From a virus: 64,000 bases of DNA. Positions within the stretch are counted from its first letter, which is position 1. Each line of letters opens with the position of its first letter. Under the pieces are notes generated by a model. That model searched no databases. It was not told the origin of the DNA and saw only the letters and a program-made list of their open reading frames with translations. Positions 11,779-53,265 of this stretch are shown piece after piece. The stretch lies in UHGV virus genome UHGV-1558314. The stretch is one strand, 5' to 3'. The position numbers were made by a program, and so were the translations under genes.

Positions 11779-12027
11779 TGTCTGAATGCTTTTGCAATTA
11801 CTGATGTTGAGAGCATTGGCACACTACCATTTTTGAAGCGAGGCTTTTTGTTTGACAACGACCACTTTTGTTTATGCCACTTCGAGCAACTTGTGCCACG
11901 ATTTGTTACATCTGCGCCGGACCTTGAGCATTTGAGTCGAAAGTCTTGTGCAGATGTACCATGCTTCTTTATTGAATGCTGACAATTATAGCAGCATTTA
12001 TCGTGCGGTTCTACTGGATATCTCATG

Positions 12028-12495: not shown

Positions 12496-12622
12496 ATGTC
12501 AATCTTGGTCAAGAAATTGTTCTTCGTCATTTGGCTGTTTCTTTGTCGACTCATCGACATTGTCTGCATCAAGCCACTGGTCATCTTGCTTGACTGTTCC
12601 AGTATCTGGTACGTTCATATCG

Positions 12623-13018
12623 TTATCGATTCTTTGAAAATGAAACTTGTGTTGATTGCTGTGGTCGTATGTCAACAAACACTGAATCTACTGCATCAAA
12701 CTTAAGCGTAGCAAGTGAATCAATTGTTTGTCTTGCTTTTTGCAAATTGCGTGCTTTGATGCCTGATACTGTTGCAGACTTTTCAAGCAGATATGCATCA
12801 CGAGGCGTCCAGTAACGAGCTTGCCAACGCATATGCATAGAGTCGACAATCAGATTTTCTGCTGCAGCATCAATAATTGCTGCAGTTGATTGCTGAGTTG
12901 CATCAAGTCGTTGCTGTAACACCGCCAATTGTTTTGTGTGCTGTTGCTGTTGTTTGAACACTACGCTGATTGCGCCAAATAAAAGAAACCACGCAATAAA
13001 ATGCAAAAATGACTTCAT
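12623..13018 (-). CDS. hypothetical membrane-anchored protein
   Basis: N-terminal hydrophobic segment FIAWFLLFGAISVVF followed by Q-rich region. Confidence 0.4.
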   Translation of the reverse strand: MKSFLHFIAWFLLFGAISVVFKQQQQHTKQLAVLQQRLDATQQSTAAIIDAAAENLIVDSMHMRWQARYWTPRDAYLLEKSATVSGIKARNLQKARQTIDSLATLKFDAVDSVFVDIRPQQSTQVSFSKNR

Positions 13019-13989
13019 GATTGCTGCACGAATTTTGAGAGCTCGAATGATAATGCGAGCATTGTTATGAATTGGTCAATTGATTGTTTCGACTCTACGC
13101 CATATTTGTGAGCTGCAATGACAATGTCTCCAAGTCGTGCAACAAAACCAGGCGTGTTCTTTGATAGCTTTGCATAGCACCAATTTGCAAAGTCAGTTGA
13201 GAGAGCATTGATGACTTCGGTTTCACGACCTTTGTATTGTGACAGTGTTTTGTAAAATTCACGTGGGTCTTTGCATGCAACAATGAAATCATACAGCTCT
13301 TCAAACTTTGCTGACATGCCCTTTGTGACATGCTCAAGCGTTATATGACGCTCACCTTGATTGAAGACAAAGTAGCAAATGTTCAGAATTTTACGGAAGT
13401 CTGGGTAGTTATCTTGAATAAGCTTGATGAGCGCTTCTTTTTCAATGGTACATTCATTTTCCTTCAAGATATTGTAGACGCGAACCATGCATTTCTTCAT
13501 CAACTGTTCTGCGACATCATCAGAAAAGTCGAATGATAACATTTTGAGACGAGATTGAGCAATTGATGCATCAATGCGGTCTGGATAGTTGCAAGTTGCA
13601 ATGAAAAACGCAATGCCTGCAAACTCTTCAATGGTGCCTCTTAAAGCCATCTGACTTTGCGTCGATAAAAAATCCATCTCATCAAGCAGTACCACCTTTA
13701 CGCCACTTGACGACAATGACATATGCTGACAGAATTCTGAAATTGTGTTGCGAACTGTGTCAATGCCAGAATTCTTTGAGCAGTTGATTTGCAGAATTGA
13801 ACGTCTATCAGTCCACTTCAATGCCAATGCTCTTGCTGCGGTTGTTTTTCCACTTCCTGGTGCTCCTGCGAACAAATAATTTTGCGGTTGACCATTAAAT
13901 GCTGCAGCATAATCATCAGGCACAATTAACTCTTCGACTTTTGTTGGCCTGTAGCGTTCTAACCAAGTTCTATCTTTAAGGGATGTCAT
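13015..13989 (-). CDS. sliding clamp loader subunit (gp44 / RFC-like AAA+)
   Basis: WLERYRPTKVEEL, Walker A GAPGSGKTT, Walker B VVLLDEMD, and NYPDFRKILN resembling T4 gp44. Confidence 0.85.
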   Translation of the reverse strand: MTSLKDRTWLERYRPTKVEELIVPDDYAAAFNGQPQNYLFAGAPGSGKTTAARALALKWTDRRSILQINCSKNSGIDTVRNTISEFCQHMSLSSSGVKVVLLDEMDFLSTQSQMALRGTIEEFAGIAFFIATCNYPDRIDASIAQSRLKMLSFDFSDDVAEQLMKKCMVRVYNILKENECTIEKEALIKLIQDNYPDFRKILNICYFVFNQGERHITLEHVTKGMSAKFEELYDFIVACKDPREFYKTLSQYKGRETEVINALSTDFANWCYAKLSKNTPGFVARLGDIVIAAHKYGVESKQSIDQFITMLALSFELSKFVQQS

Positions 13990-19334: not shown

Positions 19335-19976
19335 TTAGAATGCGACACCGACATGTGCGCCAATCATAGCAGCTTTTGAGTCAACTTGCTTCATGCAGCC
19401 TGCATCAAGACCGATACGCCATTGTAAACTACCCTGGCCAAATTGACGAGTGTATGATAGCCAATACATGTCAATTGATTGCTTGTTAAATGTTCCAAAT
19501 GCATAGTGAAAGTCTACATTATTTCGTGGCGCATCATGGTCAATGACTTTGATTGTCGTAGTTTGCACTTCACGAATAACTGTGTCTGCTTTGAACATTA
19601 AAACGTCCCAATCACGTTGCTTGATTGTGTTTTGCGTAATGTAGTCTTTTATTGCTATTTGCAGTTTGTCTGACTTCAATGTGTCTGCGTACTCATATTG
19701 CGCAAAGTAGTCATTGACATATTGCATGAGCATTGTTGTATCGATGTCAACTACAAGTGTAGTGTCACGATACACTGGCACTGGCACAGTTTTGCCTGGC
19801 AATCTTATTGTGTCATGCTTAATGAACGTATCTACTTTGAATGTTGGTTCTGCATTTATAGCGTCTTGATATGTTTGCCAGTCTTTTGGACTAACAAAAT
19901 GCCAATCTTTGAAAATCATGACAGCAGTCAATACAATGACTGTTGTCATGACTATGATTTTGAGTGTCTTCAACAT
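19335..19976 (-). CDS. hypothetical membrane-anchored protein
   Basis: N-terminal TM helix IIVMTTVIVLTAVMIF. Confidence 0.45.
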   Translation of the reverse strand: MLKTLKIIVMTTVIVLTAVMIFKDWHFVSPKDWQTYQDAINAEPTFKVDTFIKHDTIRLPGKTVPVPVYRDTTLVVDIDTTMLMQYVNDYFAQYEYADTLKSDKLQIAIKDYITQNTIKQRDWDVLMFKADTVIREVQTTTIKVIDHDAPRNNVDFHYAFGTFNKQSIDMYWLSYTRQFGQGSLQWRIGLDAGCMKQVDSKAAMIGAHVGVAF

Positions 19977-23544: not shown

Positions 23545-24513
23545 TTAGTCGAGCCAATGCAGCATATTCTCGTCATCAAAACGAGATTCAAGCTCAGCAG
23601 TTGTAATGAATGCAAGTTTGTTCAGCATATACTGCTGCAATTCACGTTTGCGAATTGATTCAAATCTGACAAATGTTTCAGGCACTTCAAGTTCACCATC
23701 AGCATCATATGTTGCAACAGAAGTGTCAACATTGATATTGTGAATCTTTTCACATGAAACTCTGTACTTTGTCAAGTCAAAGCCTGGCATGCCATCATTA
23801 CGAGGCAGCAAACTCCACATAGCAAAGTTTTCTACAGCTTCAGCAACAAATGCAAGAGCTTCATGCATGTCAACACTGTAGTCTTCTATAAGATTTGCGT
23901 ATAGTGTAGCTACAATGTTTTGATGTGTTGCAAGGTCAAGCTTATTGCTAATTGCATGCTCAAAAATGTCTTTGAAGTTCTCATACATAGTAAAGTTCTT
24001 CAAGACAAGTCGCTGTAATGCTGTGCGGTCTTCAAGAGCTGCATATGCAGCATCATCATGCATTGCAGAAGCTGCTGCTTGCTGAGCATTCAGTACAACT
24101 GATACATCATGAATGACAAATTTTGAGTCAATCAGCACTGACACTGCAATAAACGGCGCAACAGACTTTGAGTCTTTTTGAGCAAAATCAATTTCAATGT
24201 GAAACGAATTGCCTTGCCGTGACTGCACTGAATGATAAATTTCGTAGTCATTGACGTACAGCTTAAAGTGCTGTTTGATTGCATCATTGACTGCGGTAAT
24301 GCCTGCGTCATAAATGTTGCCGATCACTTCAAGTGCACGAGTGTTAAGTGTATGCGCAAGAAATGCTACATTTTGATAATTGACAAGTTTGTAAGACAAA
24401 TCAGTCGTGTTGTTAAGTTGTCTCATCAAATCATGCAGTGCATCATATGACAATTTGATGTCATCTAATGTGTTGCACTCATGTATTGCGTTAATTTGCT
24501 GTGTCAGAGTCAT
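23545..24513 (-). CDS. hypothetical protein
   Basis: 322-aa ORF. Confidence 0.5.
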   Translation of the reverse strand: MTLTQQINAIHECNTLDDIKLSYDALHDLMRQLNNTTDLSYKLVNYQNVAFLAHTLNTRALEVIGNIYDAGITAVNDAIKQHFKLYVNDYEIYHSVQSRQGNSFHIEIDFAQKDSKSVAPFIAVSVLIDSKFVIHDVSVVLNAQQAAASAMHDDAAYAALEDRTALQRLVLKNFTMYENFKDIFEHAISNKLDLATHQNIVATLYANLIEDYSVDMHEALAFVAEAVENFAMWSLLPRNDGMPGFDLTKYRVSCEKIHNINVDTSVATYDADGELEVPETFVRFESIRKRELQQYMLNKLAFITTAELESRFDDENMLHWLD

Positions 24514-24757
24514 TTTGTGTATGTTGTTGATTTGCTTGTTCTGCTAAGTTGTTTATGAATGCTTTGAGCAATGTAATGATTGTTGTTAGCAACTGAATTT
24601 GAAACAATACAATGCTAAACACGACAATTGCTACAACGCAAAATGAAATGAAGAGCATATTGATGTCAAATTTGTTTGCTATCAATGTTTGCAGCCAAGT
24701 TATGACTGCAAACATTGAAATCAGTATGAATACTTTGTGCTGTGATAACGATTTCAT
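24491..24757 (-). CDS. small hydrophobic membrane protein
   Basis: Two predicted TM segments (FILISMFAVITWL; FISFCVVAIVVFSIVLF). Confidence 0.35.
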   Translation of the reverse strand: MKSLSQHKVFILISMFAVITWLQTLIANKFDINMLFISFCVVAIVVFSIVLFQIQLLTTIITLLKAFINNLAEQANQQHTQNDSDTAN

Positions 24758-39619: not shown

Positions 39620-42600
39620 TCAATTGCATGCTGAATGTCCGCAGTTGGTGCATCGAACACAGCCGTCAAACTTGACCATGTCACCACCGCATTCAGGGCA
39701 CTTTGCATACATTTTTGAGCCATCTTGAATATGCAGTTTCAATGCACGACCAATTGCTTTGCAGAATGTTCCGACAGATGCAAAGCTTTTTGCAGTTTGG
39801 TCGACAATTTCGCCAAGGTCAATACCATTGCGAAGCATCGTTGAGTATAGTCGAGTAATTGTTTGTTGCTCATCTGAACCAAGACGTTCTGATATATTGT
39901 CATAGTGCTGCAAGAATGACAAATTGTCACCAAGCTTGTAGTGCTTCTTATCAGTCTTTGTGATTGTCGTTTGTTCAATGCCTTGCAACTTGTCGAATTC
40001 ATCTTTGTCAAGTTCAAATGCAAAGATTTCATAAGGTCGACCGTCATCACAGCCTACAAGAATACACCACTTGCGCTTATACACTGACACGCAATACACT
40101 GCAGCAGGCAATACTGGTTTTCGTTTTGAGCGATGACCAGATTGCAAGATGTGCGACTTGTCTTTTGACTGCTTGTCATCTTTTACGAGAACACCTGCAC
40201 GTGAGCCGTCTCGATAAATTGTGCAGCCCTTGCAGCCAGATTTCCATGCAGTCATATAAATTTCACGAACGAGTTCTTTTGTTGCAGAGTTTGGAATGTT
40301 GACCGTTACAGAAATTGACGAGTCAATGTATTTTTGCAATGCACCTTGCAGTTTCACCTTGCCAATCCAGTCAACATCTTCAGTAGTTGCCTTGTAGTAT
40401 GGTGATTGAACAAGCAACTCATCAATGACTGCTTGTGGAGCATTTGATAGCCAAGCTTTGATACGAGACATTTCTGCTTCTGACCATTCAATGCCAGTAT
40501 CTTTGACAAGAGTAAATTTGCCATCGCCAAGCTGCAATCGTTTACAAATCCACTGCATCAATGGGTAGTGAACTACAGCATATTCAATGAACTTGTCACC
40601 AGTAGTCTCATCAATGAAGTTGATGTCAGCTTCATTATCAACTGCAGTAGGCTTGCGACGACGTTTATGCAGCGGCATAAAGACAGGTTCAATGCCAGAC
40701 GTTGTCTGAGTCATCAAAGCTGTAGTGCCTGTTGGCGCAATTGTGGTCGTGTTAATGTTTCGACGGCCAAATTGCTGATAAGTTTTGATATGCTCATCAT
40801 CAATCGGTTCAGATAGCATACGCTGTACGAACTTTGACTGCACATCTGTGTCATAGTCGAATATTGCAAATGCGCCACGAATCTTTGCTAAGTCAATCGA
40901 TGCTTCATAAGTAGCCTTTACAAGCCATTGTTGCATAGTGACTGCGAAGTCAATTGACTCTTGTGAACCATAGCGCAAGCCAAGCATTGCCATTGCATCG
41001 CCAAGTGCAAGGAAGCCCATGCCATATCTACGAGTATTTGTCAATTTGTCATAGACTTTGTGCCACAAGTCAAGTTCAGTCTTTTTGATGTCAAAGTCTT
41101 CTTTGTCTGACTGTACCTTTGCAATGATTCGTTGCACTGCTTCAATTTCAAGCTGTACAAGGTCATCCATGATGACTGCACAATCATACGTGTCTTTATA
41201 GAATGTCTCAAAGTCAAATGACGCATCAGCAGTCCAAGGATTAAGCACGTATGCAGTCAAATTGCGATGTGACAAAATGCAGCTTGCATATGCTGCAAGA
41301 GGTTGTTCACCACAATTTAATGTATTGACTACTTGCTTGTCATTGACTGCAATAAAGAAATTGTGGAAGTCTTCTACTGTACCATTGTACACATCTGCTT
41401 TGTTCATGTGACGTGTTGCAACGACTTTGACAATTGTATCACCAGTAGTGTCAATGTCTGCATATTTGCTGCAGCCACCTAATGCTGCACAAGCTTCACA
41501 GCAATATGACTGTTCACGATTGTCATAAGAGATTTCGAATTCTTTACCACAGCACTCGCATTGTTTGATAACTGTATTTCGTTCTGTTTTTACAAGCTCA
41601 TCAGTCTTCAATGCAATTGATAGCTTATCTGCGCTTGGCATATCAATTGCCCACAACGTGTCATTTGTCGCAAGGTCAATTGCATACTTGAAATCACCAT
41701 TAGCAAGTCTGAACTCATGATTTGCTGTGCAATTGATGACATGACCATCATCAAGCACAATCTGAATGATTTGTGCATTGTGTGCAGTCAATCTTGGTCG
41801 ACGCATTGTACGCACAACAAGCTTGCCATTAGCGTCAAGACAATACACTGGAATGTCTTCGCCGTTATCAGCAAGCTCTTTGAATGTCTTCAAGCCTGAG
41901 CCATCAGCAACAAGCACTTTTGTGTCACCAGTGAAGCATGGATTTGTTGAGCGCTCTTCATACATTTTGCCGTATGCTTTCGAGTTCGACTCTTCCATAA
42001 TGCGGTCCCAAAAGAATACACCAGGTTCTGCAGATGCCCATACATTATCAACAATTTTGTCAAACAATGCTTTTGCATCTGATGTCTTATGCAGCTCTTG
42101 ACCATTAGAGCCACGCCAAACATGCTCAAACTGTTGTTCTGCAAGCACTGCACGCATAAATGCATCAGTAAGCTTGATGGAAATGTTTGCGCATGTGATT
42201 TTCGTCAAGTCCTTTTTTGCATCAATGAACTTATCTGCATCAGGATGCTCAATTGACAATGACAACATCAATGCGCCACGCCTGCCATTTTGTGCAACTT
42301 CTTTTGTCGATGTTGAAAAACGTTCCATAAATGACACTACACCAGACGTCGTAACAGCACTGTTATGCACTTCTACGCCTTCTGGACGAATATGTGACAA
42401 ATCATGGCCGACACCACCACGACGTTTCATCAACTGAACTTGTTCTTCATCTATTTTGAAGATGCCGCCATATGAGTCTGCATCATTGCCTATTACATAG
42501 CAATTTGACATTGATGTGTAACCGCCAAGACCAATACCAGCCATTGGAGAACCACCAAGTACAAATCGCTTAAATGGCTCAAGCAAATATGCAAGTCGCT

Positions 42601-42841
42601 CTTTTGACAATACACGTTTGCCTGTCTGTTCTTCAAATTGTGATTCTATACGGTCAAATTCATTGACCCAGCGTTCATGCATATCAGACAATGAGTGTTC
42701 ATACAGATTGTCTTTGTCATGATGCAAGTATTTTGACATGCATATGTCAGCAGCCATTGAGTCGCCTGTAAATTCATGTGTCAGTGTAGTGTGCACTTCA
42801 GCATATTCAGGCGACCCAATTTGAATAGGACGTTTTGTCAT
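39620..42841 (-). CDS. ribonucleotide reductase catalytic subunit (probably class II NrdJ-like), intein-containing
   Basis: Active-site NPCGE is split (…ERSTNP | intein | CGEQPL…); C-terminal zinc ribbon CPECGG...CVRCTNCGH; start taken at MTKRP (ATG at 42841). Confidence 0.8.
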   Translation of the reverse strand: MTKRPIQIGSPEYAEVHTTLTHEFTGDSMAADICMSKYLHHDKDNLYEHSLSDMHERWVNEFDRIESQFEEQTGKRVLSKERLAYLLEPFKRFVLGGSPMAGIGLGGYTSMSNCYVIGNDADSYGGIFKIDEEQVQLMKRRGGVGHDLSHIRPEGVEVHNSAVTTSGVVSFMERFSTSTKEVAQNGRRGALMLSLSIEHPDADKFIDAKKDLTKITCANISIKLTDAFMRAVLAEQQFEHVWRGSNGQELHKTSDAKALFDKIVDNVWASAEPGVFFWDRIMEESNSKAYGKMYEERSTNPCFTGDTKVLVADGSGLKTFKELADNGEDIPVYCLDANGKLVVRTMRRPRLTAHNAQIIQIVLDDGHVINCTANHEFRLANGDFKYAIDLATNDTLWAIDMPSADKLSIALKTDELVKTERNTVIKQCECCGKEFEISYDNREQSYCCEACAALGGCSKYADIDTTGDTIVKVVATRHMNKADVYNGTVEDFHNFFIAVNDKQVVNTLNCGEQPLAAYASCILSHRNLTAYVLNPWTADASFDFETFYKDTYDCAVIMDDLVQLEIEAVQRIIAKVQSDKEDFDIKKTELDLWHKVYDKLTNTRRYGMGFLALGDAMAMLGLRYGSQESIDFAVTMQQWLVKATYEASIDLAKIRGAFAIFDYDTDVQSKFVQRMLSEPIDDEHIKTYQQFGRRNINTTTIAPTGTTALMTQTTSGIEPVFMPLHKRRRKPTAVDNEADINFIDETTGDKFIEYAVVHYPLMQWICKRLQLGDGKFTLVKDTGIEWSEAEMSRIKAWLSNAPQAVIDELLVQSPYYKATTEDVDWIGKVKLQGALQKYIDSSISVTVNIPNSATKELVREIYMTAWKSGCKGCTIYRDGSRAGVLVKDDKQSKDKSHILQSGHRSKRKPVLPAAVYCVSVYKRKWCILVGCDDGRPYEIFAFELDKDEFDKLQGIEQTTITKTDKKHYKLGDNLSFLQHYDNISERLGSDEQQTITRLYSTMLRNGIDLGEIVDQTAKSFASVGTFCKAIGRALKLHIQDGSKMYAKCPECGGDMVKFDGCVRCTNCGHSACN
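41315..41938 (-). mobile_element. mini-intein (208 aa) inside the ribonucleotide reductase gene
   Basis: Begins CFTGDTKVLV (block A), contains NCTANHEF (block B) and VYNGTVEDFHNFF (block G-like), ends ...VVNTLN followed by extein Cys; precise excision restores NPCGE. No LAGLIDADG or HNH domain; carries a Cys-rich insert CECCGKEF...CCEACAALGGC. Confidence 0.75.
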
Positions 42842-42908
42842 TGTAACAGTGCATTTAAGTGTTTTAACAGTTTTATGTATAAATTGTACAACAATGGGCA
42901 AAATTTTG

Positions 42909-42958: not shown

Positions 42959-43149
42959 TGCGCACCTGCTATTTTACTTGAACAGCTTCTGCAAGAATGA
43001 AACTGCAATCTACTACATCATCTTCTTCGCATTTAGAATTGAAGTACTGCTGAGCATCCTTGGCATTGTCAAATGCTTCATACCATCGATGGTCAATGTA
43101 GTCTACTAATACAAGATAGTGTTTCATAGTTAGTTGCAGTTAGTTGTAG

Positions 43150-43605
43150 TTATTGTGCTTTGCCAGTATAATAAGTGATTGCGTCAATGTAAGGCTGTTC
43201 TTTAGACATTAGCCAATCAATGCCAAATACTGTATCTTGGCGAAATCTTCGTTGTGCAATCATTTGAACTTCTATAGGCATATCTACGTCCTTGCCAAAT
43301 CTTATTGTATTTGCAAGTTCTGTGATTGCATATCTGAGAATTTTATCAGTGCTCATTGTTAATGTACTTTCCGGCAATTGCCAGTAGCGTTCTTGGAATG
43401 CTCGATTTGCTGAGTAAGTCCAAAGTTCAAGTCTTGCATTTCTGCAATCATATGAAACAATCAGACTTAATCCTTTTGTCCAGCAATGTGCTATCTTAAT
43501 GATAGGGTTGTTGTCATTGATTGATGACATTGCTTGCAGTTTTTCGAAATCTTTAACATATCTGTTATCATTCGAAAGCTGTTCCATTATTTCACCGTAA
43601 GTCAT
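43150..43605 (-). CDS. hypothetical protein
   Basis: 151-aa ORF. Confidence 0.45.
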   Translation of the reverse strand: MTYGEIMEQLSNDNRYVKDFEKLQAMSSINDNNPIIKIAHCWTKGLSLIVSYDCRNARLELWTYSANRAFQERYWQLPESTLTMSTDKILRYAITELANTIRFGKDVDMPIEVQMIAQRRFRQDTVFGIDWLMSKEQPYIDAITYYTGKAQ

Positions 43606-43639
43606 TGTAGTAGAGGTTAAAATATATTAATATATAATA

Positions 43640-43667
43640 ATTATACTACAAAGTTGCCAGATTTGCA
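43640..43667 (-). promoter_or_regulatory. recurrent bipartite promoter-like motif
   Basis: ttatactacaaagttgccagatttgcac upstream of the 43150..43605 gene. Confidence 0.45.
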
Positions 43668-43780
43668 CCAGAATGTATAACAAGTTCACACAAAATTACA
43701 AACAAAAACAAGCAGACTGCAATTACAGCCTGCTTGCACCAAAACAGAAAAAGATGATAACTTAACCCAAAAACCTAACT

Positions 43781-45322
43781 TTATCTACTTACAGAATCTC
43801 GCATTGAAATCATAACTTGCTCTTGAATTGACATAGGTATGATGTTGAAGTCTGACACTTCAGCAACGTCATCAACATCAAGTGCTCTTAATGTGTCTGT
43901 GTTACAGCAAGTCACTATGATTGACTTGCGAACATACTCATCAGCAACATTCCACAACAGCTGACAAATTGCTCGATTGTCAAGACAAATTTCATTGACT
44001 GTGCGGACAAGGCTGTACCATGCAGTCACATTATTGCGCTTCAGAGTTTCAAGCATATATCGTGCAAGCCCAAAACCTGCTACATATGACCCAGTCTGCT
44101 TATTGAATGACTCAATTGCGTATGCATCAAACAATGCTTCTGTCATCAAGGGCATTGCAGCGGTCATTCGGTAGTATCGATAGTCAACACATACAATCAA
44201 CCAGTTAACATATGAATTGACTGCGTATGCATGCGCTTTGAACCCAAGGTCATTCAAGATTTTGCAGATGGCATTGTAAGTCGATTCATCAGCATTGCCA
44301 AAGTTTGCAAGCAGCTTAACTTTAAGAATGTCTTCACCAATTGCATTTCTTGTAGCAGTGAATGATGGTATGCATGCAAAGCTTCTTTTGCAGATGTCTG
44401 TGATAAGTTGCTGTGCATCATTCACAAGCTGTCTTGCAGCCTCAGCACGCTTTTCAGACTGTGCTTGATATTTTGGCCGCAACTGTGATGAGCCAGTTGC
44501 AGCACCATATCGCATAGCAGCTTGCCAGTCCTTGAGATTATTTTGCAATTCACGAACATAGTCTGCAGCGACCATTGCAGATGGAGTTCTTTGCTGTTCG
44601 ATGAGTTTGTTGATGTTTGCAAGCACATCTGATGCAAACATATCTTTTGGTTTGACTTTCGCAATTTCAGCAAGCACTGCAGGTACACGAGCAATGCCAC
44701 GAGGCTCATTTGAAACTACTACTGCATAATCTACAAGTGCCTCACATACAAGCTGTTCATCGACAAAGTACTCAGGATTCTGCACAGCGTCTTCAACAAC
44801 TGCAATCAATGTTGCTATACGATTGCCGTCAGGCTTATTGCCAAACAGCTCAATGTACAACATATCTGCTTGTTGGTCTGTCATTGAACCTGCAATGTCA
44901 ATTGACTTTGCCAGCTTATTAAGCAGTTCAGCTTGCTTACTCGACAATCTGACTTTGTATGATGACTCTACAGCTTCTTTGACTGCTTTGAGTTTTCTAT
45001 CAATGTCAAGACTACTTTCATTGACATTCATACCAACAATGCCAGCAGCGTCAGTGTTAAATTGCTCAACAGTTTCTGCTGCAGTTATTGGCGATGACAC
45101 AATAGATTGTTTTGCATTTGCTGCAAGCTGATTGAGTCGAGTGACTGCTTCAGAATCTTGCGCAACTGCAAGATATCTTACGCACAGCTCATCAATCTGT
45201 GAAAGATAACTTTGGGTCATGTTTATCGAAAAATTGTTGTTTCTTGACGAATAGCTGTTGGATGCAATTTGCAGAAACACTTCGACATTTCTAAGTTCCG
45301 ATGATGACAACAATGTTTCCAT
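43781..45322 (-). CDS. hypothetical protein
   Basis: 513-aa ORF. Confidence 0.5.
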   Translation of the reverse strand: METLLSSSELRNVEVFLQIASNSYSSRNNNFSINMTQSYLSQIDELCVRYLAVAQDSEAVTRLNQLAANAKQSIVSSPITAAETVEQFNTDAAGIVGMNVNESSLDIDRKLKAVKEAVESSYKVRLSSKQAELLNKLAKSIDIAGSMTDQQADMLYIELFGNKPDGNRIATLIAVVEDAVQNPEYFVDEQLVCEALVDYAVVVSNEPRGIARVPAVLAEIAKVKPKDMFASDVLANINKLIEQQRTPSAMVAADYVRELQNNLKDWQAAMRYGAATGSSQLRPKYQAQSEKRAEAARQLVNDAQQLITDICKRSFACIPSFTATRNAIGEDILKVKLLANFGNADESTYNAICKILNDLGFKAHAYAVNSYVNWLIVCVDYRYYRMTAAMPLMTEALFDAYAIESFNKQTGSYVAGFGLARYMLETLKRNNVTAWYSLVRTVNEICLDNRAICQLLWNVADEYVRKSIIVTCCNTDTLRALDVDDVAEVSDFNIIPMSIQEQVMISMRDSVSR

Positions 45323-45334
45323 GTGATATGTATT

Positions 45335-45943
45335 TTAGCCTGCAAACTCATTGATTTTTAGGTCATTTGTCGTAACTGCAAAGCAATCAATGTGCAGCCA
45401 TGTGACGTCTTTTTCTATACGACAACGATGCGGCAATTCATCTGCATGTTCTTTAATGAGCTTTCGCATTTCTGCAGCAGTCATATCTGCAGACTGACAA
45501 TCAATTGCTGCACCATTACAATGTGCACTCAAATAAAGCTTGTTTGCAAGTGTCTTGTCTTTTGGGATTTGACAGATATTGCATCGTAAGCCACGTTGAC
45601 TCATTGTGCCGCCTTTAGCCCAATTATTGACACATAACGGCACTTTCAGCACAAATTTGCGTAATGCAAGCAGCAAGTCAAGCAGTTCTCTGTCAAGAAA
45701 CTGCCAAGAATTATCGCCAAACTTGTCATAGCAATGTTTGCATACAAGTTCTTTTATGCTGAAATATTGCTTAAGCTCTGCAATGACAGAGTCTCTTGAA
45801 GCACTTGCAATATCTGCAATGTTAGCTATGCTGTTGTTGCTGTTGTTCATGTTGTCTATCAAGTTCTTTGCATTTGCACTCATTTCGTTCACCCATGACT
45901 TTTGTAATGCCCGCAGTTGCAAACATGCCTGCGACTGCGCCAA
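45335..45943 (-). CDS. endolysin, peptidase M15 family (L-alanyl-D-glutamate peptidase-like)
   Basis: Zn-binding signature SAHCNGAAID (S-x-H-x-x-G-x-A-x-D) and downstream WLHID; start uncertain, probably an internal Met. Confidence 0.65.
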   Translation of the reverse strand: MAQSQACLQLRALQKSWVNEMSANAKNLIDNMNNSNNSIANIADIASASRDSVIAELKQYFSIKELVCKHCYDKFGDNSWQFLDRELLDLLLALRKFVLKVPLCVNNWAKGGTMSQRGLRCNICQIPKDKTLANKLYLSAHCNGAAIDCQSADMTAAEMRKLIKEHADELPHRCRIEKDVTWLHIDCFAVTTNDLKINEFAG

Positions 45944-46133
45944 TTATGCCTGCAACTGCGCCAAGTTGCTCAGTTGTTTTGCCAGTTGCTACGACTTCCC
46001 ATATGATAGCAAAACAAACAACGAGCAATATAAAGATGCCTATAAAAGTCACAGCTACAACAAAAAATGATTTGACTGACACACCAGTGTCATTCGTCAC
46101 TAAGTTGCGCATTGTAAATTTGTTGTTATTCAT
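45822..46133 (-). CDS. holin-like small membrane protein
   Basis: Two hydrophobic helices (FFVVAVTFIGIFILLVVCFAII; LGAVAGIIGAVAGMFATAGI), charged Q-rich C-terminus, immediately upstream of and overlapping the endolysin. Confidence 0.45.
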   Translation of the reverse strand: MNNNKFTMRNLVTNDTGVSVKSFFVVAVTFIGIFILLVVCFAIIWEVVATGKTTEQLGAVAGIIGAVAGMFATAGITKVMGERNECKCKELDRQHEQQQQQHS

Positions 46134-46145
46134 ATGGATGGCGAA

Positions 46146-46175
46146 CTGTACACATTGTACACATTGTACACACTT
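46146..46175. repeat. 9-bp tandem repeat tgtacacat x3
   Basis: ctgtacacattgtacacattgtacacac upstream of the holin-like gene. Confidence 0.7.
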
Positions 46176-46293
46176 ATATTGTATGTGTTTGTATATGTAT
46201 TTTAACAGGCATTAGCAAACAATACAAAAATGCAAAATGAAAGTGGCTCAGATGTATATCTGAGCCACTTTCATTTGTCATATGAGTTGTCTA

Positions 46294-47949
46294 TTATGCA
46301 AGCAATGTTTGCAGCATGTAGCAGCCTTTTGCATATGCGACAATTGCTTTTGCAGGATTGTTCTTGATGTATGCAGGCAACTTGAGCCAAATCAGTGCTA
46401 CAAGAACTTTCTGTCGCAGCGTTAAATCAAGTTCATCAATGTTGTAGCCAATGACTTTTGCTCTGACATCGCCATCAACATAATCGAATTGCTGATATGC
46501 TGACTGATTGAATGCATCATAGCCAGACAAGCCATATGCAAACTTTGCAATGTCATAATCGATGTCACCAGTCATCTTGACGTCACCAAAGTAGCCTCTT
46601 GGGTCAATGAACATGCATTTTGATGAATCTGCACTGAACATTGTATTTGACGTATTCGGGTCACCATGAATGAATGACCAATTTTCGCATGCATAGTCAA
46701 TTGAATCTTCTTGTGACAAGAAGAATCTTAACTTGCTCATCAGTTCATCGAATGGCATCAATGCAATACCATTGAATGATTTGATGCCTGCTACAAGTGA
46801 CTTGACTTCAGCATATCTTGCAATAGTAGTCTCAATGTACTCTTTGCGCATTGCGTCAATCATTTGCTGTCTGCTAACTGGCCAAATCTCGTCATTGTCA
46901 AGATTACTTGCATGCAATTCATTGATTGACTGTTTGAATGTTGTCATGCAGCCACGAGCAATTGCAGCATATCTACGCTCAATATCAACTTTGTTGAGGA
47001 ACTGATGTACAGTCACTCCGTTAATTTTCGACATTTTGATGAAGTCTTCACCAGTTTCAAATATCGATGGAATGACTGTCGATTCTGCATTCATAGCATG
47101 ACGATACCATTCTTGTTCTTTCTGAATGAGTGCCAAACCACGAGCATTTGTAGCAGATTTCGTAACAATATCGCCATCAATGCTAATGCTATTGAAATAC
47201 CGCACTTCATTATCACGTGCAGCCTTGACTGCTTCACTGACAAATGCTCCGCGTTCGCCATATGAATGACAGCCAGCAATTTCATATCTGTCTACAAATG
47301 TAACGTTGGTCATTAAATCAGCAAAATCAGCATTGTTATCATTATGCTGCATATCAATGACATTGTTATGAAACGCTGCAGGTACATAATATGCGCCAAC
47401 AATGCCACTATGATATGTAGACTCATACAAATGGTCGAGCACATATGCTTCTGCATCTGCATAAGACCCTACTTTGTAGAATGCATCAGTAGGAATGAGA
47501 TGCAGTCTGCAATCAATGTCATTTGACGTGCAACAAGTTATGCAGCCATTTTTGAATTCTGCAAACGGCAATTCAATATCGCCAAGCCACACATCAGACC
47601 AATGATAGAATACATTGCAATCACCAATGTTGTTAGCAACAAACATTGCTACATCTGCGCATGCTTTTGCTGAGCCATCAGCTTTGTCATGCACAATAGT
47701 TGATAACTTGATATCTGGTGCAAATGCTGCAGCATGTTCATGAATCATTGCTACATGAGTGTCATTTGCACATGCAACAATGACTTCATCAAACTGTCGA
47801 GCATAGGATGTCAAAATCTTTGCAAGCACTGTTTGTTTGCCTGCATTTACAAGAGTTTTAGGGATGTAATTGTTGCCGGTCATTGTTGACATGCGAGTGC
47901 CCAACCCACATGCAATGATTGCTAACACATTTGGATATTGATGAGACAT
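46294..47949 (-). CDS. bifunctional sugar-phosphate nucleotidyltransferase / APH-choline-kinase-fold kinase
   Basis: N-terminal AIIACGLGTRM...IPKTL (G-x-G-T-R nucleotidyltransferase signature); C-terminal FIHGDPNTSN and FIDPRGY (kinase H-x-D...N and D-x-x-G-type motifs). Confidence 0.6.
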   Translation of the reverse strand: MSHQYPNVLAIIACGLGTRMSTMTGNNYIPKTLVNAGKQTVLAKILTSYARQFDEVIVACANDTHVAMIHEHAAAFAPDIKLSTIVHDKADGSAKACADVAMFVANNIGDCNVFYHWSDVWLGDIELPFAEFKNGCITCCTSNDIDCRLHLIPTDAFYKVGSYADAEAYVLDHLYESTYHSGIVGAYYVPAAFHNNVIDMQHNDNNADFADLMTNVTFVDRYEIAGCHSYGERGAFVSEAVKAARDNEVRYFNSISIDGDIVTKSATNARGLALIQKEQEWYRHAMNAESTVIPSIFETGEDFIKMSKINGVTVHQFLNKVDIERRYAAIARGCMTTFKQSINELHASNLDNDEIWPVSRQQMIDAMRKEYIETTIARYAEVKSLVAGIKSFNGIALMPFDELMSKLRFFLSQEDSIDYACENWSFIHGDPNTSNTMFSADSSKCMFIDPRGYFGDVKMTGDIDYDIAKFAYGLSGYDAFNQSAYQQFDYVDGDVRAKVIGYNIDELDLTLRQKVLVALIWLKLPAYIKNNPAKAIVAYAKGCYMLQTLLA

Positions 47950-47990
47950 TGTGTAGTATTGTTTATATGAATATTGTACAATATGCATTG

Positions 47991-48248
47991 CTATTTTGCA
48001 AGATGACAATGCTTACGCCATACTGCAATTTCAACATCTGTAGCAAAATCAAAGTGCAAGCCATGCAATTGTTTCATGTCATATTGACGTCTTGCAATAT
48101 ACTTATTGCCAACTCGCTCAACAACAGAACCAATTTCTACTACATTTTTAGAATGTCGTGGCTCATGTAATGGCACTCTGAATATGTATCTGCCATCTAA
48201 TGTTGACATTATGTCACCATTGTCAATTATGCCTGTTTGCCTGCTCAT
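47991..48248 (-). CDS. hypothetical protein
   Basis: 85-aa ORF. Confidence 0.3.
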   Translation of the reverse strand: MSRQTGIIDNGDIMSTLDGRYIFRVPLHEPRHSKNVVEIGSVVERVGNKYIARRQYDMKQLHGLHFDFATDVEIAVWRKHCHLAK

Positions 48249-48963: not shown

Positions 48964-49420
48964 TTAAAATTTGCCATCTGCTACTTGAAAACATTGATAG
49001 CCAAGCTCTCGCCATTTAGCGACCATGGAATCGCGGTCTTCAAGCACAAATGCAATTTGTTGCAGTTCGTCTTCAGACAATGTTTCTACAAGCAATTCAG
49101 GTTTGACAAGCGTATCATGACGTTTATCACCATCTTTTCGCATAAGAATTTGCGGATTGACGATTCTGCCATCTGTATGCTGTGCAAGCCAAACTTCTGT
49201 CATCTGTCTGCAGCTTTCACGACGACCTGTGCAGAATATGATTCTGTAGCCAACTTGCTGCAAATCGCAAAGCAAGTCAAGCACAGTCATAATAGGCTTG
49301 TCTTCATAACAGTGTGCATAAAATGCATCCCCAATCTTTGTTTGATTGTTGAAGATATTTTAGACGGTCGCCAACTTTTGAAATTGTTCCGTCAATGTCG
49401 CATATGATGATATTTGCCAT
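48964..49420 (-). pseudogene. HAD-superfamily phosphatase interrupted by a +1 frameshift
   Basis: ATG at 49420 opens MANIIICDIDGTISKVGDRLKYLQQSNKDW (HAD motif I) and stops after 38 codons; the rest (DAFYAHCYEDKPI...IIFCTGRRE...) continues in the +1 frame; removing one base from the cccc run at 49329..49332 fuses both parts. Confidence 0.5.
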
Positions 49421-50461: not shown

Positions 50462-50812
50462 TTACAAATATGAGTACAGTTTGTTCATAACTCGTTCAAT
50501 TGCAAATTCAACACCATATTGCAACAACTGTTCAGTGCTAAATGTCTTTGCTGCATGTGCATGCGCAACAATATGCTTTGTCTGTGCATATAATATCCAA
50601 GTATCAGTTGGCCTGTCATAAGTTACTGTCAGTCTACATGTTTGCAACACAAACTCTTGACTAAAGTATTCTCTTCGCCAAAACTCTGGTTCTGCAATAT
50701 GCAAATCAAGCCAAGCAAACTCAAACAGAATTTGTTTAAGTTGACGTTGATGCTTACGTTCAGCACGATATGAGTTGCTGAATAGCCATTTAATGATGTT
50801 CATCATTTGCAA
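50462..50812 (-). CDS. hypothetical protein
   Basis: 116-aa ORF. Confidence 0.4.
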   Translation of the reverse strand: MQMMNIIKWLFSNSYRAERKHQRQLKQILFEFAWLDLHIAEPEFWRREYFSQEFVLQTCRLTVTYDRPTDTWILYAQTKHIVAHAHAAKTFSTEQLLQYGVEFAIERVMNKLYSYL

Positions 50813-51519
50813 TCATTATGCTGAGTATGAATTGCGTTGCCCTGTGAATCCAAGCGAATCGCAGTTTGCATTGCGACTTCAGATTGTGTTTGTTCTGCTT
50901 GACGAGCTCTTTGAAGTCCACCTCCAGGGTGACATGTGTAAAATCTATCAAAGTCAGTGCCAAGCTGTTCAGCAACAGACAACATGATGTTATCACCAAT
51001 GAGCTGAGATGCTAGCAGAGAATTCGTCGGAATTCGTGGATTGCGTGAGTCCTCGTCAATTGCTGGCAATGATACAAGCAAGTCTGCCCAAGCATTCATA
51101 TCAGTGACCTTGCCACCAGCAAAGTTAATGCCGATGATTTGGCAATTCGGTGCAAGCAATTCACGATGTTCACGAAGATATGTCATTGCAGTTGCAAGTT
51201 CAGATGTGTTGCCTGTTTTGCTGAATGCTACAATAACATCATTGTTTCGAATCATACCAAAGTCACCATGCATTGCATGTACTGCATCAAAGAACGCAGC
51301 ATCAAGTGAAATTGAATAGCATGTTGCAGCAAGTTTTTCACAGCAATGCACATTTTTGCCAATGCCAGTGAACAATACTTTGCCATCAGACTTCAATGCA
51401 TTTGCAATAATGTCTGCTGCAATGCCAAGAACATCATATTGCGCATCTGAAATGTTGTTGTGCCATGCTACAAGCGACTCGACTGATGCAGCAATGCCTT
51501 TGTGTACAAGTGTTTTCAT
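50803..51519 (-). CDS. SIS-domain sugar-phosphate isomerase (arabinose-5-phosphate isomerase-like)
   Basis: DGKVLFTGIGKNVHCCEKLAAT and VIVAFSKTGNTSEL match the KdsD/KpsF-type SIS signature; no CBS domains. Confidence 0.7.
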   Translation of the reverse strand: MKTLVHKGIAASVESLVAWHNNISDAQYDVLGIAADIIANALKSDGKVLFTGIGKNVHCCEKLAATCYSISLDAAFFDAVHAMHGDFGMIRNNDVIVAFSKTGNTSELATAMTYLREHRELLAPNCQIIGINFAGGKVTDMNAWADLLVSLPAIDEDSRNPRIPTNSLLASQLIGDNIMLSVAEQLGTDFDRFYTCHPGGGLQRARQAEQTQSEVAMQTAIRLDSQGNAIHTQHNDCK

Positions 51520-52707: not shown

Positions 52708-53265
52708 TTAAAATTTGGATAGACTCGTAGTTGAATCAATGCGCAAAGAATCTGCTATAGGTGCGCAATCATCAATTGGGCGACTTGCAGGCTTAACTTT
52801 GAGCATGTACATTCTGCAGTTGCCAATATCTATAAGGGAACCAGAACGTGTCATATAATCACAACCCAAAATGCCAACAACTTCATGACCAAGTGCTTTG
52901 CTAAGCTGAACTAAAATAGGCGAAATGTCGTCAATAAACATGTCCAGCTGTACAGAACCATTTGCGATAGTAATGTCTGCATCTATTGCATGAGATACTT
53001 GAAGAGCTCCTGTGACATATGATAGTCGCTTAACTGAACGCTCTTTGCCAACCATGTCATGAGTTGCAACAAATGTGCTGTCAATCAATGACAATGATGC
53101 GCCAGTGTCAAGCAAAAGCCATGTGTCGACACCATTGACATTTGCATGCACAAATGGCAGGCTCTTCAAAACAATCGGTGACTGTGATTGCTGCAATGCT
53201 TCATTACACATTGTCAGCGTCATAATCGCAAGTAGCGATATAAGAAACAATTTGAATGTTTTCAT
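52708..53265 (-). CDS. secreted/lipoprotein retropepsin-like aspartic protease
   Basis: Signal peptide with LTMC lipobox-like cleavage site; active-site signature LLLDTGAS (hydrophobic-D-T-G-A-S). Confidence 0.6.
   Translation of the reverse strand: MKTFKLFLISLLAIMTLTMCNEALQQSQSPIVLKSLPFVHANVNGVDTWLLLDTGASLSLIDSTFVATHDMVGKERSVKRLSYVTGALQVSHAIDADITIANGSVQLDMFIDDISPILVQLSKALGHEVVGILGCDYMTRSGSLIDIGNCRMYMLKVKPASRPIDDCAPIADSLRIDSTTSLSKF

What the first reader, a model, noticed from the sequence alone, without database searches (positions are those of the whole stretch)
45335..46133. Lysis cassette: holin-like gene overlapping an M15 peptidase endolysin
A two-TM small protein overlaps the start region of an endolysin carrying the SxHxxGxAxD zinc signature. 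No spanin genes are obvious nearby, although two membrane-anchored proteins of unknown function elsewhere in the window (12623..13018 and 19335..19976) could serve that role.
Basis: partly seen in the sequence, partly recalled or inferred. Interest (0 to 1): 0.35.

Follow-up and report, generated by a model that had tools for sequence, protein, structure and literature searches.

The report
Phage holin–endolysin lysis gene pair
This is an ordinary lysis cassette of a large phage of Bacteroidota: a small two-helix membrane protein (probable holin) overlaps a zinc M15-type cell-wall peptidase, and the missing outer-membrane-disrupting partner is probably a detached gene 26 kb away.

Summary
On the minus strand, a 103-aa ORF (45822..46133) with two hydrophobic helices overlaps a 182-aa ORF (45335..45883) that carries SAHCNGAAID. 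A better-conserved start at 45850 would give 171 aa and a 29-nt overlap.

- **Real genes:** against a 71–78% identical relative, dN/dS is 0.11 and 0.07.
- **Peptidase:** it belongs to a ~330-member, mainly Bacteroidota and phage family with invariant His/Asp/His. It matches PHROG 894 "endolysin" and has an M15/LAS-like predicted fold. crAss-like and Bacteroides phage homologues are annotated as endolysin or peptidase.
- **Holin:** the small membrane protein has only three close homologues. However, the slot just upstream of this endolysin family usually holds a membrane protein, often a Pfam Phage_holin_4_1 member.
- **Spanins:** none flank the cassette. The family of 19335..19976 sits next to M15 endolysin genes in seven other loci and has an envelope-spanning architecture.

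Verdict: a correct but ordinary call, a new member of a known kind. The spanin-like family is the only modestly novel lead.

The parts
45822..46133 (-). Holin-like gene, 103 aa. It has a short basic N-terminus with two Mets (M1, M8) separated by K5. TM1 is ~residues 22-46 (nt ~45996..46070). A short loop follows. TM2 is ~residues 56-76 (nt ~45906..45968) with G58xxxG62 and G65xxxG69. The tail is charged and Gln-rich.
   Evidence: ORF, hydropathy, charges; 71% identity to L001 homologue; dN/dS 0.11; only 3 close homologues; Phage_holin_3_6 17.2 bits, below the 28.4 cut-off.
45335..45883 (-). Endolysin gene, an M15/LAS-type zinc peptidase closest to Pfam PF08291. It is 182 aa from ATG 45883. An alternative and better conserved start, ATG 45850, gives 171 aa. 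It has no signal peptide and no SAR segment.
   Evidence: start analysis.
45822..45883 (-). Overlap of the holin 3' end with the endolysin 5' end: 62 nt, or 29 nt (45822..45850) if M12 is the start. It is a CAA/CAG-rich tract read as poly-Gln in the holin frame and Asn/Ser in the endolysin frame. It is the least conserved part of both genes and varies in length between variants.
45500..45529 (-). Codons for S119-A-H121-C-N-G-A-A-I-D128 (SxHxxGxAxD). H121 and D128 are the inferred zinc ligands. The third, H164 within W-L-H-I-D, is at 45392..45394.
   Evidence: H121, D128, H164 and D166 invariant in 23 sequences.
46235..46276 (-). Terminator-like hairpin (19-bp stem, 4-nt loop, T-rich tail) after the upstream gene 46294..48009. 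It marks the 5' boundary of the lysis transcription unit.
   Evidence: z = -6.2. The Rfam hits there are only hairpin-type false positives.
46147..46173 (-). Three tandem 9-bp units (GTGTACAAT / GTGTACAAT / GTGTACAGT on the minus strand) 14 nt upstream of the holin ATG. This could be a regulatory site; its function is unknown.
   Evidence: exact copies only here in the window.
43781..45322 (-). 513-aa ORF of unknown function, 12 nt downstream of the endolysin stop on the same strand. It has no TM segment. It is conserved in the same position in L001, so it is probably co-transcribed.
43708..43737 (-). Terminator-like hairpin (13-bp stem plus T-run) after the 513-aa ORF. It is the probable 3' boundary of the unit.
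19335..19976 (-). Detached candidate outer-membrane-disruption (spanin-like) protein, 213 aa. It has an N-terminal TM helix (2-22), extended beta elements, and four C-terminal strands of 12-14 residues ending in Phe.
   Evidence: hhalign 95.7% to phrog_26448-type proteins; a family member lies between a Phage_holin_4_1 gene and 'peptidase M15' in phage MW202828.1; AF2, pLDDT 82.8; all seven HMM hits lie next to an M15 endolysin gene.

Best explanation
This is the holin-endolysin core of the lysis system of a ~175-kb myovirus-like phage of a Bacteroidota host. The proposed mechanism has the following steps.

- **Transcription (inferred).** The two genes, probably together with the following 513-aa ORF, form one unit bracketed by two terminator-like hairpins.
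- **Holin insertion (inferred from hydropathy and charge).** The 103-aa protein inserts into the inner membrane as an N-in/C-in helical hairpin. TM1 is very hydrophobic. TM2 is a Gly/Ala zipper.
- **Hole formation (inferred by analogy with class II holins).** The holin accumulates harmlessly, then oligomerises at a set time into holes.
- **Endolysin release (inferred).** The 171-182-aa endolysin has no signal or SAR sequence, so it accumulates folded in the cytoplasm. It reaches the murein only through those holes.
- **Cleavage (ligands shown conserved; bond specificity not determinable from sequence).** The endolysin cuts a peptide bond of the peptidoglycan stem or cross-link, using a zinc ion held by H121, D128 and H164.
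- **Start-site overlap (inferred).** The endolysin start lies inside the holin's 3' end, which would allow translational coupling.
- **Outer-membrane step (comparative association shown; function inferred).** This step is not encoded in the cassette. The best candidate is the detached gene 19335..19976, whose family sits next to M15 endolysin genes in other phages.
For: - **Anatomy and coding:**. Both genes are under purifying selection against relative L001 (dN/dS 0.11 and 0.07), and the gene order is kept there.
- **Endolysin by sequence:** PHROG 894 'endolysin' at 2.9e-16. 330 homologues, mostly Bacteroidota. Invariant H121, D128, H164, D166. Two of 23 relatives hit PF08291 at 2e-6.
- **Endolysin by structure:** AF2 pLDDT 91, pTM 0.85. 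The top PDB matches are 1lbu (Zn DD-peptidase), 5opz (ChiX) and 8q2g (LysECD7). BFVD matches are 'Peptidase M15' and 'M15A C-terminal' at E 1e-9 to 1e-4.
- **Endolysin by annotation:** homologues at 41-51% identity are annotated endolysin, peptidase or L-Ala-D-Glu endopeptidase in crAss-like phages cr115_1 and cr6_1, Bacteroides phage C3_41T2LP and csAssE-Sib.
- **Holin by position:** in 27 of 49 related genomic loci a TM protein lies immediately upstream, often overlapping by 4-61 nt. Six of 9 tested are Pfam Phage_holin_4_1 above the cut-off.
- **No export signal on the endolysin:**
- **Transcription-unit boundaries:**
- **Phage type:** clamp loader, topoisomerase II, ribonucleotide reductase, NAD ligase and terminase genes, plus a major capsid protein ~37% identical to those of jumbo phages of Bacteroidota hosts.
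- **Detached partner:**
Against: - The holin-like protein matches no holin family. Phage_holin_3_6 scores 17.2 bits against a cut-off of 28.4, and only three near-identical homologues exist. Its role therefore rests on position and topology alone.
- TM2 is only moderately hydrophobic (1.83), and no dedicated topology predictor was available.
- The window peptidase itself hits no Pfam M15 model and no PDB sequence. Foldseek E-values against PDB are weak (0.04-0.3, TM 0.4-0.5).
- At least one homologue sits in a bacterial chromosome among housekeeping genes with no phage genes nearby, so the family is not exclusively lytic.
- A second small two-TM protein (24491..24757) exists in the window and could be the holin or an antiholin.
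- No activity, timing or expression data exist.
Confidence: 0.78

Rival explanations
1. The peptidase is the endolysin, but the 103-aa membrane protein is not the hole-former. It would be an antiholin, a lysis regulator or an unrelated membrane protein such as a superinfection-exclusion factor. The real holin would lie elsewhere, as in T4-like phages with scattered lysis genes, for example the 88-aa two-TM ORF at 24491..24757.
For: There is no holin-family match and the family is tiny. The genome is T4-like in scale, with lysis genes apparently dispersed. A second small two-TM ORF exists. Kongari et al. 2018 (PMC6139136) note that lysis genes are not clustered in T4-like phages.
Against: In relatives of this endolysin, the immediately upstream overlapping slot is repeatedly a bona fide holin-family gene. 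The protein has the size, two TMs, GxxxG-rich TM2 and charged tail typical of class II holins. The pair is kept together in L001. The ORF 24491..24757 has no lysis-gene neighbours and no family hit.
Confidence: 0.13
2. The M15-like protein is not the lysis endolysin. It would instead be a cytoplasmic or virion-associated peptidase, for example one acting on peptidoglycan precursors or recycling products like VanX-type dipeptidases, or an entry-associated murein hydrolase. Its adjacency to a membrane protein would then be coincidental.
For: A homologue lies in a Paludibacteraceae chromosome between a Cupin_5 gene and metabolic genes, with no phage context and no signal peptide (L013). M15 enzymes include cytoplasmic dipeptidases (established knowledge of VanX, MEROPS M15D). 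No enzymatic data exist for this family.
Against: Most genomic homologues sit in three-gene units of the form TM/holin - peptidase - TM protein. Phage homologues are single-domain ~150-aa proteins in lysis positions. PHROG 894 is a lysis family. There are no structural-protein domains that would place it in the virion.
Confidence: 0.06
3. This is a pinholin/SAR-endolysin system. The small two-TM protein would make only small depolarising pores, and the endolysin would be exported by the Sec system and tethered by an N-terminal signal-anchor-release helix.
For: The two-TM topology and Gly-rich TM2 resemble the phage 21 S68 pinholin (established knowledge).
Against: The endolysin N-terminus (MSANAKNLIDNMNNSNNSIANIADIASAS...) is hydrophilic. 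The only hydrophobic window is an internal amphipathic helix at residues 67-85, so there is no SAR domain.
Confidence: 0.02

Closest known systems
Endolysins of crAss-like and other Bacteroides phages (cr115_1 gp04 'endolysin', cr6_1, Bacteroides phage C3_41T2LP 'peptidase', csAssE-Sib 'L-Ala D-Glu endopeptidase'); PHROG 894
   Same: They share 41-51% identity over ~80% of the protein, the same ~150-aa single-domain core, and the same invariant His/Asp/His and Cys residues. A small gene overlaps the start in cr115_1 by 26 nt.
   Different: The window protein has an extra ~20-30-residue, low-confidence N-terminal extension created by the overlap. It sits in a ~175-kb T4-like-scale genome rather than a crAss-like one. 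None of these homologues has been tested biochemically, as far as the held literature shows.
Peptidase M15 / LAS zinc peptidases: Pfam PF08291 Peptidase_M15_3 ('M15A C-terminal'), S. albus Zn DD-peptidase (1lbu), ChiX (5opz), LysECD7 (8q2g), phage T5 and Ply500 L-Ala-D-Glu peptidases
   Same: It has the H-x6-D ... H zinc triad inside SxHxxGxAxD and W-x-H-x-D. The fold matches are the best ones found in PDB and BFVD.
   Different: There is no significant sequence match to any solved structure and no Pfam hit for the window protein. TM-scores are only 0.4-0.54. The family has extra invariant residues C48, H50, C101 and C104. The bond cleaved is unknown.
Class II holins (two TMDs, N-in/C-in; for example the phage 21 S gene product), including dual-start holin/antiholin pairs such as lambda S105/S107
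   Same: It is ~100 aa with two TMDs, a short periplasmic loop and a charged C-terminal tail. Two in-frame Mets are separated by a Lys (M1...K5...M8; M1...M16 in L001). The gene lies directly upstream of the endolysin.
   Different: There is no sequence homology to any described holin family. The partner endolysin is soluble, so large holes rather than pinholes are required. Use of the dual start is untested.
Phage_holin_4_1 (PF05105) - M15 endolysin - membrane-protein cassettes of Bacteroidales prophages
   Same: The gene order is the same, and the holin stop overlaps the endolysin start.
   Different: The window's holin is a different, two-TM, unclassified protein. The third gene (u-spanin-like or phrog_26448-like) is absent from the cassette and is replaced by a 513-aa soluble protein.
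Unimolecular spanins (phage T1 gp11) and phrog_26448 proteins
   Same: 19335..19976 and its relatives are single polypeptides with one membrane anchor at the N-terminus and a second membrane-type element at the C-terminus. They are encoded next to endolysins in other phages.
   Different: T1 gp11 has an N-terminal lipoprotein anchor and a C-terminal TM helix. Here the N-terminus is a TM helix (a lipobox in distant relatives), and the C-terminus is a four-strand beta sheet ending in an aromatic residue. There is no sequence similarity to known spanins. In this genome the gene is 26 kb from the cassette. Its function is untested.

Membership tests
Peptidase M15 / LAS metallopeptidase superfamily | Zinc ligand triad H-x(3-6)-D plus a distal H, here within SxHxxGxAxD | tested here: met
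   H121 and D128 lie in SAHCNGAAID and H164 in WLHID. All three are invariant in 23 aligned family members.
Peptidase M15 / LAS metallopeptidase superfamily | Hedgehog/DD-peptidase fold | tested here: inconclusive
   The AF2 model has pLDDT 91. The best PDB matches are LAS enzymes (1lbu, 5opz, 8q2g, hedgehog N-domains), but at E 0.04-0.3 and TM 0.4-0.54. BFVD 'Peptidase M15 / M15A' matches have probability 1.00 and E down to 3e-9.
Pfam PF08291 Peptidase_M15_3 | Score above the Pfam gathering threshold | tested here: not met
   The window protein has no Pfam M15 hit at E <= 0.1. Only 2 of 23 relatives hit PF08291 (best 2e-6) and 1 hits PF05951. It is therefore a divergent sister branch, not a scored member.
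PHROG 894 (endolysin) | Significant profile match | tested here: met
   E = 2.9e-16, 60.4 bits, residues 44-187 of the 202-aa ORF.
Endolysin (functional class) | Peptidoglycan-degrading activity required for lysis | not testable with these tools
   This needs a zymogram, muropeptide analysis and a knock-out.
Canonical (holin-dependent) endolysin as opposed to SAR or signal-peptide endolysin | Absence of an N-terminal hydrophobic export or anchor segment | tested here: met
   There is no hydrophobic window in the first 60 residues.
Holin (functional class) | Small protein with at least one TMD and a charged, hydrophilic C-terminus, encoded next to the endolysin | tested here: met
   It is 103 aa with two hydrophobic segments. 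Its tail has 5 K/R and 5 D/E. Its 3' end overlaps the endolysin start.
Holin (functional class) | Timed, lethal hole formation in the cytoplasmic membrane | not testable with these tools
   This needs inducible expression and a release assay.
Described holin sequence families (Pfam Phage_holin_*, PHROG lysis families) | Profile match above threshold | tested here: not met
   The best hit is Phage_holin_3_6 at 17.2 bits against a cut-off of 28.4. No PHROG lysis family matches.
Class II holin topology | Two TMDs with N and C termini in the cytoplasm | tested here: inconclusive
   Hydropathy gives two segments. Net positive charge flanks both ends and the loop is neutral. No dedicated topology predictor or experiment was available.
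Dual-start holin/antiholin motif | Two in-frame start codons separated by a basic residue, both used | tested here: inconclusive
   M1-NNN-K5-FT-M8 occurs in the window and M1...K12...M16 in L001. Gene callers split between the 103-aa and 96-aa forms. Usage is not testable here.
Two-component spanin (i-spanin plus o-spanin) | Type II membrane protein with a periplasmic coiled coil, plus an adjacent, overlapping or embedded small lipoprotein gene | tested here: not met
   No lipobox ORF was found at 43000..46300 or 11700..13100. 12623..13018 has an N-terminal TM but no partner, no family hit, and neighbours that are replication genes.
Unimolecular spanin (T1 gp11 type) | N-terminal lipoprotein signal and C-terminal TM helix in one small protein | tested here: not met
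   No such ORF was found in the window. The type is common directly downstream of homologous endolysins in other Bacteroidota loci.
phrog_26448-like lysis-cassette proteins (for 19335..19976) | Homology to the family, and position next to an endolysin | tested here: inconclusive
   Profile-profile comparison gives probability 95.7% and E 8e-9, but over only 51 columns. An HMM of the 19335 family finds 7 ORFs among 2698 in fetched loci, all adjacent to an M15 endolysin gene. The window gene itself is not adjacent: it lies 26 kb away.

The most novel reading that the evidence does not exclude
The 19335..19976 protein and the related phrog_26448-type proteins would form an undescribed class of single-chain, envelope-spanning outer-membrane disruptors (functional spanins) of Bacteroidota phages. 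They would be anchored in the inner membrane by an N-terminal helix (or a lipid anchor in relatives) and in the outer membrane by a C-terminal OMP-like beta sheet, instead of the lipoprotein/TM-helix pair of T1 gp11. In this phage the gene has separated from the holin-endolysin pair.
Probability: 0.3. Interest if true: 0.6.

Novelty: new member of a known kind. Interest (0 to 1): 0.27.

Why it matters
The cassette itself adds little. It shows that a large, uncultured PAU/MA9V-like phage of Bacteroidota lyses its host with a canonical holin plus a soluble M15-type endolysin. It also provides one more unclassified holin sequence.

Two things have some practical value:

- **An untested endolysin branch.** This M15-like branch is widespread in gut Bacteroidales phages. 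It has no solved structure, no Pfam model that captures it and no biochemical test, so its bond specificity is open.
- **An approach to outer-membrane disruption.** How Bacteroidota phages breach the outer membrane is poorly known; Bacteroides phage B124-14 is listed as spanin-less in Kongari et al. 2018. The comparative data here point to two recurrent gene types next to this endolysin: u-spanin-like proteins and the phrog_26448/19335 family. Both could be tested directly.

Tried and rejected
- **DNA similarity.** A blastn search of 44000..48000 against GenBank phages found nothing.
- **PDB by sequence.** Searches with the window protein, with the family profile and with relative P0094 found nothing relevant.
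- **NCBIfam.** It gave nothing for either protein.
- **Holin homologues.** The large-database search returned only three near-identical proteins, so no profile could be built.
- **Neighbour genes against the window.** BLASTP of the upstream and downstream neighbours of homologous endolysins against all window ORFs gave no hit.
- **Small-profile tests of 19335..19976.** A 9-sequence HMM of class-b proteins hit it only at E 0.037, and a 3-sequence profile gave hhalign probability 30%. Only the deeper 22-sequence profile gave a convincing link.
- **Locus retrieval.** The search for related loci with the 19335-family alignments failed because they have no conserved 7-10-column stretch. tblastn of 19335..19976 against phages found nothing.
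- **Fold search of the 19335 model.** Foldseek against PDB gave no meaningful match (TM < 0.2).
- **Literature.** A search for tests of this endolysin family or for Bacteroides phage spanins found nothing specific.
- **Rfam.** The region gave only sub-threshold miRNA-type hits on the terminator hairpin.
- **The 513-aa downstream ORF.** It has no Pfam, PHROG or phage tblastn match.
- **SAR-endolysin/pinholin model.** It is rejected on the hydrophilic endolysin N-terminus.
- **12623..13018 as an i-spanin.** It is rejected for lack of any partner or family support.
Full report
**1. Observation**

The window carries two overlapping minus-strand ORFs at the stated coordinates.
- The first is 45822..46133: 103 aa, starting at an ATG.
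- The second is open from a TTG at 45943 down to the stop at 45335. Its first ATG (45883) gives a 182-aa product.
- That product is identical to a protein already called on several public metagenomic contigs, the longest of 175,395 bp.

The small protein has two hydrophobic segments.
- Residues ~22-46 reach a 19-residue Kyte-Doolittle mean of 3.17.
- Residues ~56-76 reach 1.83 and are Gly/Ala-rich, with G58xxxG62 and G65xxxG69.
- The N-terminus is net positive, the loop is 9 residues and neutral, and the C-terminal tail is charged and Gln-rich.

The larger protein contains S119-A-H-C-N-G-A-A-I-D128 at 45500..45529, which is exactly SxHxxGxAxD. It has no hydrophobic N-terminal segment.

**2. 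Are they real genes?**

A diverged relative on a 3.6-kb contig (L001) has the same pair in the same order. It too is followed by a homologue of the window's 513-aa downstream ORF.
- The holin-like proteins are 71% identical and the peptidases 78% identical.
- Nei-Gojobori dN/dS is 0.11 for the non-overlapping holin part and 0.07 for the peptidase core.
- Both are therefore protein-coding and under purifying selection.

**3. The overlap and the true start**

The overlap tract is the least conserved part of the locus, with indels between the window and L001.
- It is a CAA/CAG repeat, read as poly-Gln in the holin frame and Asn/Ser in the peptidase frame.
- It varies in length among near-identical variants.

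In the protein alignment, the window's M12 (ATG 45850) aligns with M22 of the L001 protein. In L001 that Met lies 4 nt after the holin stop.
- The segment just downstream (IADIASAS) is recognisably homologous in several other relatives.
- I therefore think ATG 45850 is the likelier start, giving 171 aa and a 29-nt overlap. Gene callers chose 45883, which gives a 62-nt overlap.
- No ATG/GTG/TTG exists in frame after the holin stop, so an overlap is obligatory in this genome. This is compatible with translational coupling (inference).

**4. What the peptidase is**

Sequence evidence:
- The window protein itself hits no Pfam model, no NCBIfam model and no PDB sequence.
- It hits PHROG 894 'endolysin' at 2.9e-16.
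- It has 330 homologues of ~150 aa.
- In 23 aligned homologues, H121, D128, H164 and D166 are invariant, as are C48, C101 and C104. H50 is nearly so.
- Two relatives reach Pfam PF08291 Peptidase_M15_3 at 2e-6.

Structural evidence:
- The AF2 model is confident (pLDDT 91, pTM 0.85), apart from the first ~20 residues.
- Its best PDB neighbours are the S. albus Zn DD-peptidase 1lbu, the L-Ala-D-Glu endopeptidase ChiX and the endolysin LysECD7. The statistics are weak (E 0.04-0.3, TM 0.4-0.54).
- Against predicted viral structures, the matches are 'Peptidase M15' and 'M15A C-terminal' proteins with probability 1.00.

Annotation evidence: homologues at 41-51% identity are annotated endolysin, peptidase or L-Ala-D-Glu endopeptidase in crAss-like phages cr115_1 and cr6_1, Bacteroides phage C3_41T2LP and phage csAssE-Sib.

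Conclusion: this is a divergent branch of the M15/LAS superfamily that serves as the endolysin of many Bacteroidota phages. The bond it cleaves cannot be read from the sequence. I found no biochemical study of the family.

**5. What the small membrane protein is**

It has only three close homologues and no significant holin-family match. Phage_holin_3_6 scores 17.2 bits against a cut-off of 28.4. The argument is therefore positional and architectural.

I fetched 71 genomic loci encoding relatives of the peptidase, almost all from Bacteroidota. I inspected the flanks of 49 of them.
- About 27 have a TM protein ending within a few nucleotides of the peptidase start, or overlapping it by 4-61 nt.
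- Of nine such proteins tested, six are Pfam Phage_holin_4_1 members above the gathering cut-off.

The slot occupied by 45822..46133 is thus the holin slot of this endolysin family. With its size, two TMs, glycine-zipper TM2 and charged tail, the protein is best read as a class II-type holin of an undescribed sequence family.

Two in-frame Mets separated by a Lys (M1/K5/M8) occur in the window protein, and a similar arrangement occurs in L001. This recalls dual-start holin/antiholin genes but is untested. Because the endolysin has no SAR or signal sequence, a pinholin model is rejected.

**6. Transcription unit**

- A strong terminator-like hairpin lies at 46235..46276 (19-bp stem, z = -6.2) after the upstream gene.
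- Three tandem 9-bp repeats (46147..46173) lie just before the holin ATG.
- A second terminator-like hairpin follows the 513-aa ORF at 43708..43737.

The unit thus appears to be holin - endolysin - 513-aa protein. The last has no TM segment and no detectable relatives of known function.

**7. Spanins**

No lipoprotein ORF and no i-spanin/o-spanin pair is present near the cassette. In relatives, the gene directly downstream of the endolysin is usually a membrane protein of one of two recurrent kinds:
- **Class (a):** an N-terminal lipobox plus a C-terminal TM helix, which is the unimolecular-spanin architecture.
- **Class (b):** an N-terminal TM plus a C-terminal 'RWGxGxxAGYG...F/W' segment. 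This is PHROG 26448, of unknown function.

The window has neither at that position.

It has no partner ORF and no family support.

The candidate 19335..19976 is different.
- A full HMMER scan found 23 distant homologues.
- Their profile matches the class (b) profile with hhalign probability 95.7% (E 8e-9), though over only 51 columns.
- The same profile, searched against 2698 ORFs of all fetched loci, hits seven ORFs, and every one lies immediately next to an M15 endolysin gene.
- One of these is in phage MW202828.1, where it sits between a Phage_holin_4_1 gene and a T5-like 'peptidase M15'.
- AF2 (pLDDT 82.8) predicts an N-terminal TM helix, long beta elements and four C-terminal strands of 12-14 residues ending in Phe.
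- One relative weakly hits Pfam OMP_b-brl.
- No PDB fold match exists.

I consider it more likely than not (~0.55) that this family is a lysis-cassette accessory. It is plausible (~0.3) that it acts as a single-chain envelope-spanning outer-membrane disruptor. In this T4-like-scale genome the gene would simply be unlinked from the cassette, as Kongari et al. 2018 note for T4-like phages (PMC6139136).

**8. Context**

The window encodes a clamp loader, topoisomerase II subunits, a ribonucleotide reductase with an intein, an NAD-dependent ligase, a large terminase and a major capsid protein. The capsid protein is ~37% identical to those of Chryseobacterium phage MA9V, Sphingomonas phage PAU and Tenacibaculum jumbo phages. 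GC content is 40%. The taxonomic spread of the endolysin family points to a Bacteroidota, probably Bacteroidales, host.

**9. Verdict**

The cassette is a new member of a well-known kind of system, with nothing mechanistically surprising.

The mildly interesting points are:
- The endolysin branch has never been characterised experimentally.
- The holin belongs to no described sequence family.
- There is comparative evidence that a detached gene family, to which 19335..19976 belongs, is lysis-associated in Bacteroidota phages.

Noticed in passing
window 46294..48009 (-), with 48964..49290, 50803..51519 and neighbours: Directly upstream of the lysis unit is a 571-aa fusion of a nucleotidyl-transferase domain (PF00483) and an APH/choline-kinase-like domain (phrog_4098, 3e-76). 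It sits in a run of genes that includes a SIS sugar isomerase and a HAD/PNKP-type phosphatase. This looks like a phage-encoded sugar-nucleotide (heptose-like) pathway.
   Followed up: partly
window 39620..42901 (-): The ribonucleotide reductase large subunit (phrog_84, 1e-92) has a weak Intein_splicing hit, so it is probably interrupted by an intein.
   Followed up: no
window 24491..24757 (-): A second small (88-aa) protein with two strong hydrophobic segments has no family hit. It could be an antiholin, an alternative holin or an unrelated membrane protein.
   Followed up: partly
window 45335..45883 (-), residues C48, H50, C101, C104: Besides the catalytic His/Asp/His, the endolysin family has C48, C101 and C104 invariant and H50 nearly so (C-x-H ... 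R-C-N-x-C). This suggests a second, structural metal site or a redox-sensitive cluster. Model coordinates could not be inspected.
   Followed up: no
L009/L013 (Paludibacteraceae chromosome OY760143.1, ~1.353 Mb): A 152-aa homologue of the endolysin (55% identity) lies in a 2.5-Mb bacterial chromosome. It overlaps a Cupin_5 gene by 4 nt and is flanked by methylmalonyl-CoA mutase and trehalose genes, with no phage genes in 10 kb. It may be a domesticated or housekeeping copy.
   Followed up: partly
L016, L017, L020, L022, L024, L034, L046, L062, L070 (just downstream of the endolysin match); L011:2971-3315 (Bacteroides phage C3_41T2LP gene 00024): Genes directly downstream of homologous endolysins encode an N-terminal lipobox plus a C-terminal TM helix, the unimolecular-spanin architecture. 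In the isolated phage C3_41T2LP the gene is annotated only as hypothetical.
   Followed up: partly
L018, L023, L028, L031, L033, L035, L039, L040, L012:3524-3976: PHROG 26448 proteins (unknown function) recur immediately downstream of this endolysin family. They have an N-terminal TM and a C-terminal 'RWGxGxxAGYG...[FW]' hairpin that resembles an OMP beta-signal.
   Followed up: partly
window 46147..46173 (-): Three tandem 9-bp units containing the palindrome TGTACA lie 14 nt upstream of the holin ATG. Exact copies occur nowhere else in the window. In one close variant the tract is read as an N-terminal extension of the holin ORF (P0121, 117 aa).
   Followed up: partly
L005:2760-2969, L010:2924-3829 (crAss-like contigs): Called genes next to the endolysin contain in-frame stop codons when translated with table 11, consistent with stop-codon recoding in these crAss-like phages.
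   Followed up: no
window 52708..53265 (-): This 185-aa protein has a lipoprotein-type signal (…LAIMTLTMC) and a weak retropepsin-like Asp_protease_2 hit, which is an unusual combination for a phage gene.
   Followed up: no
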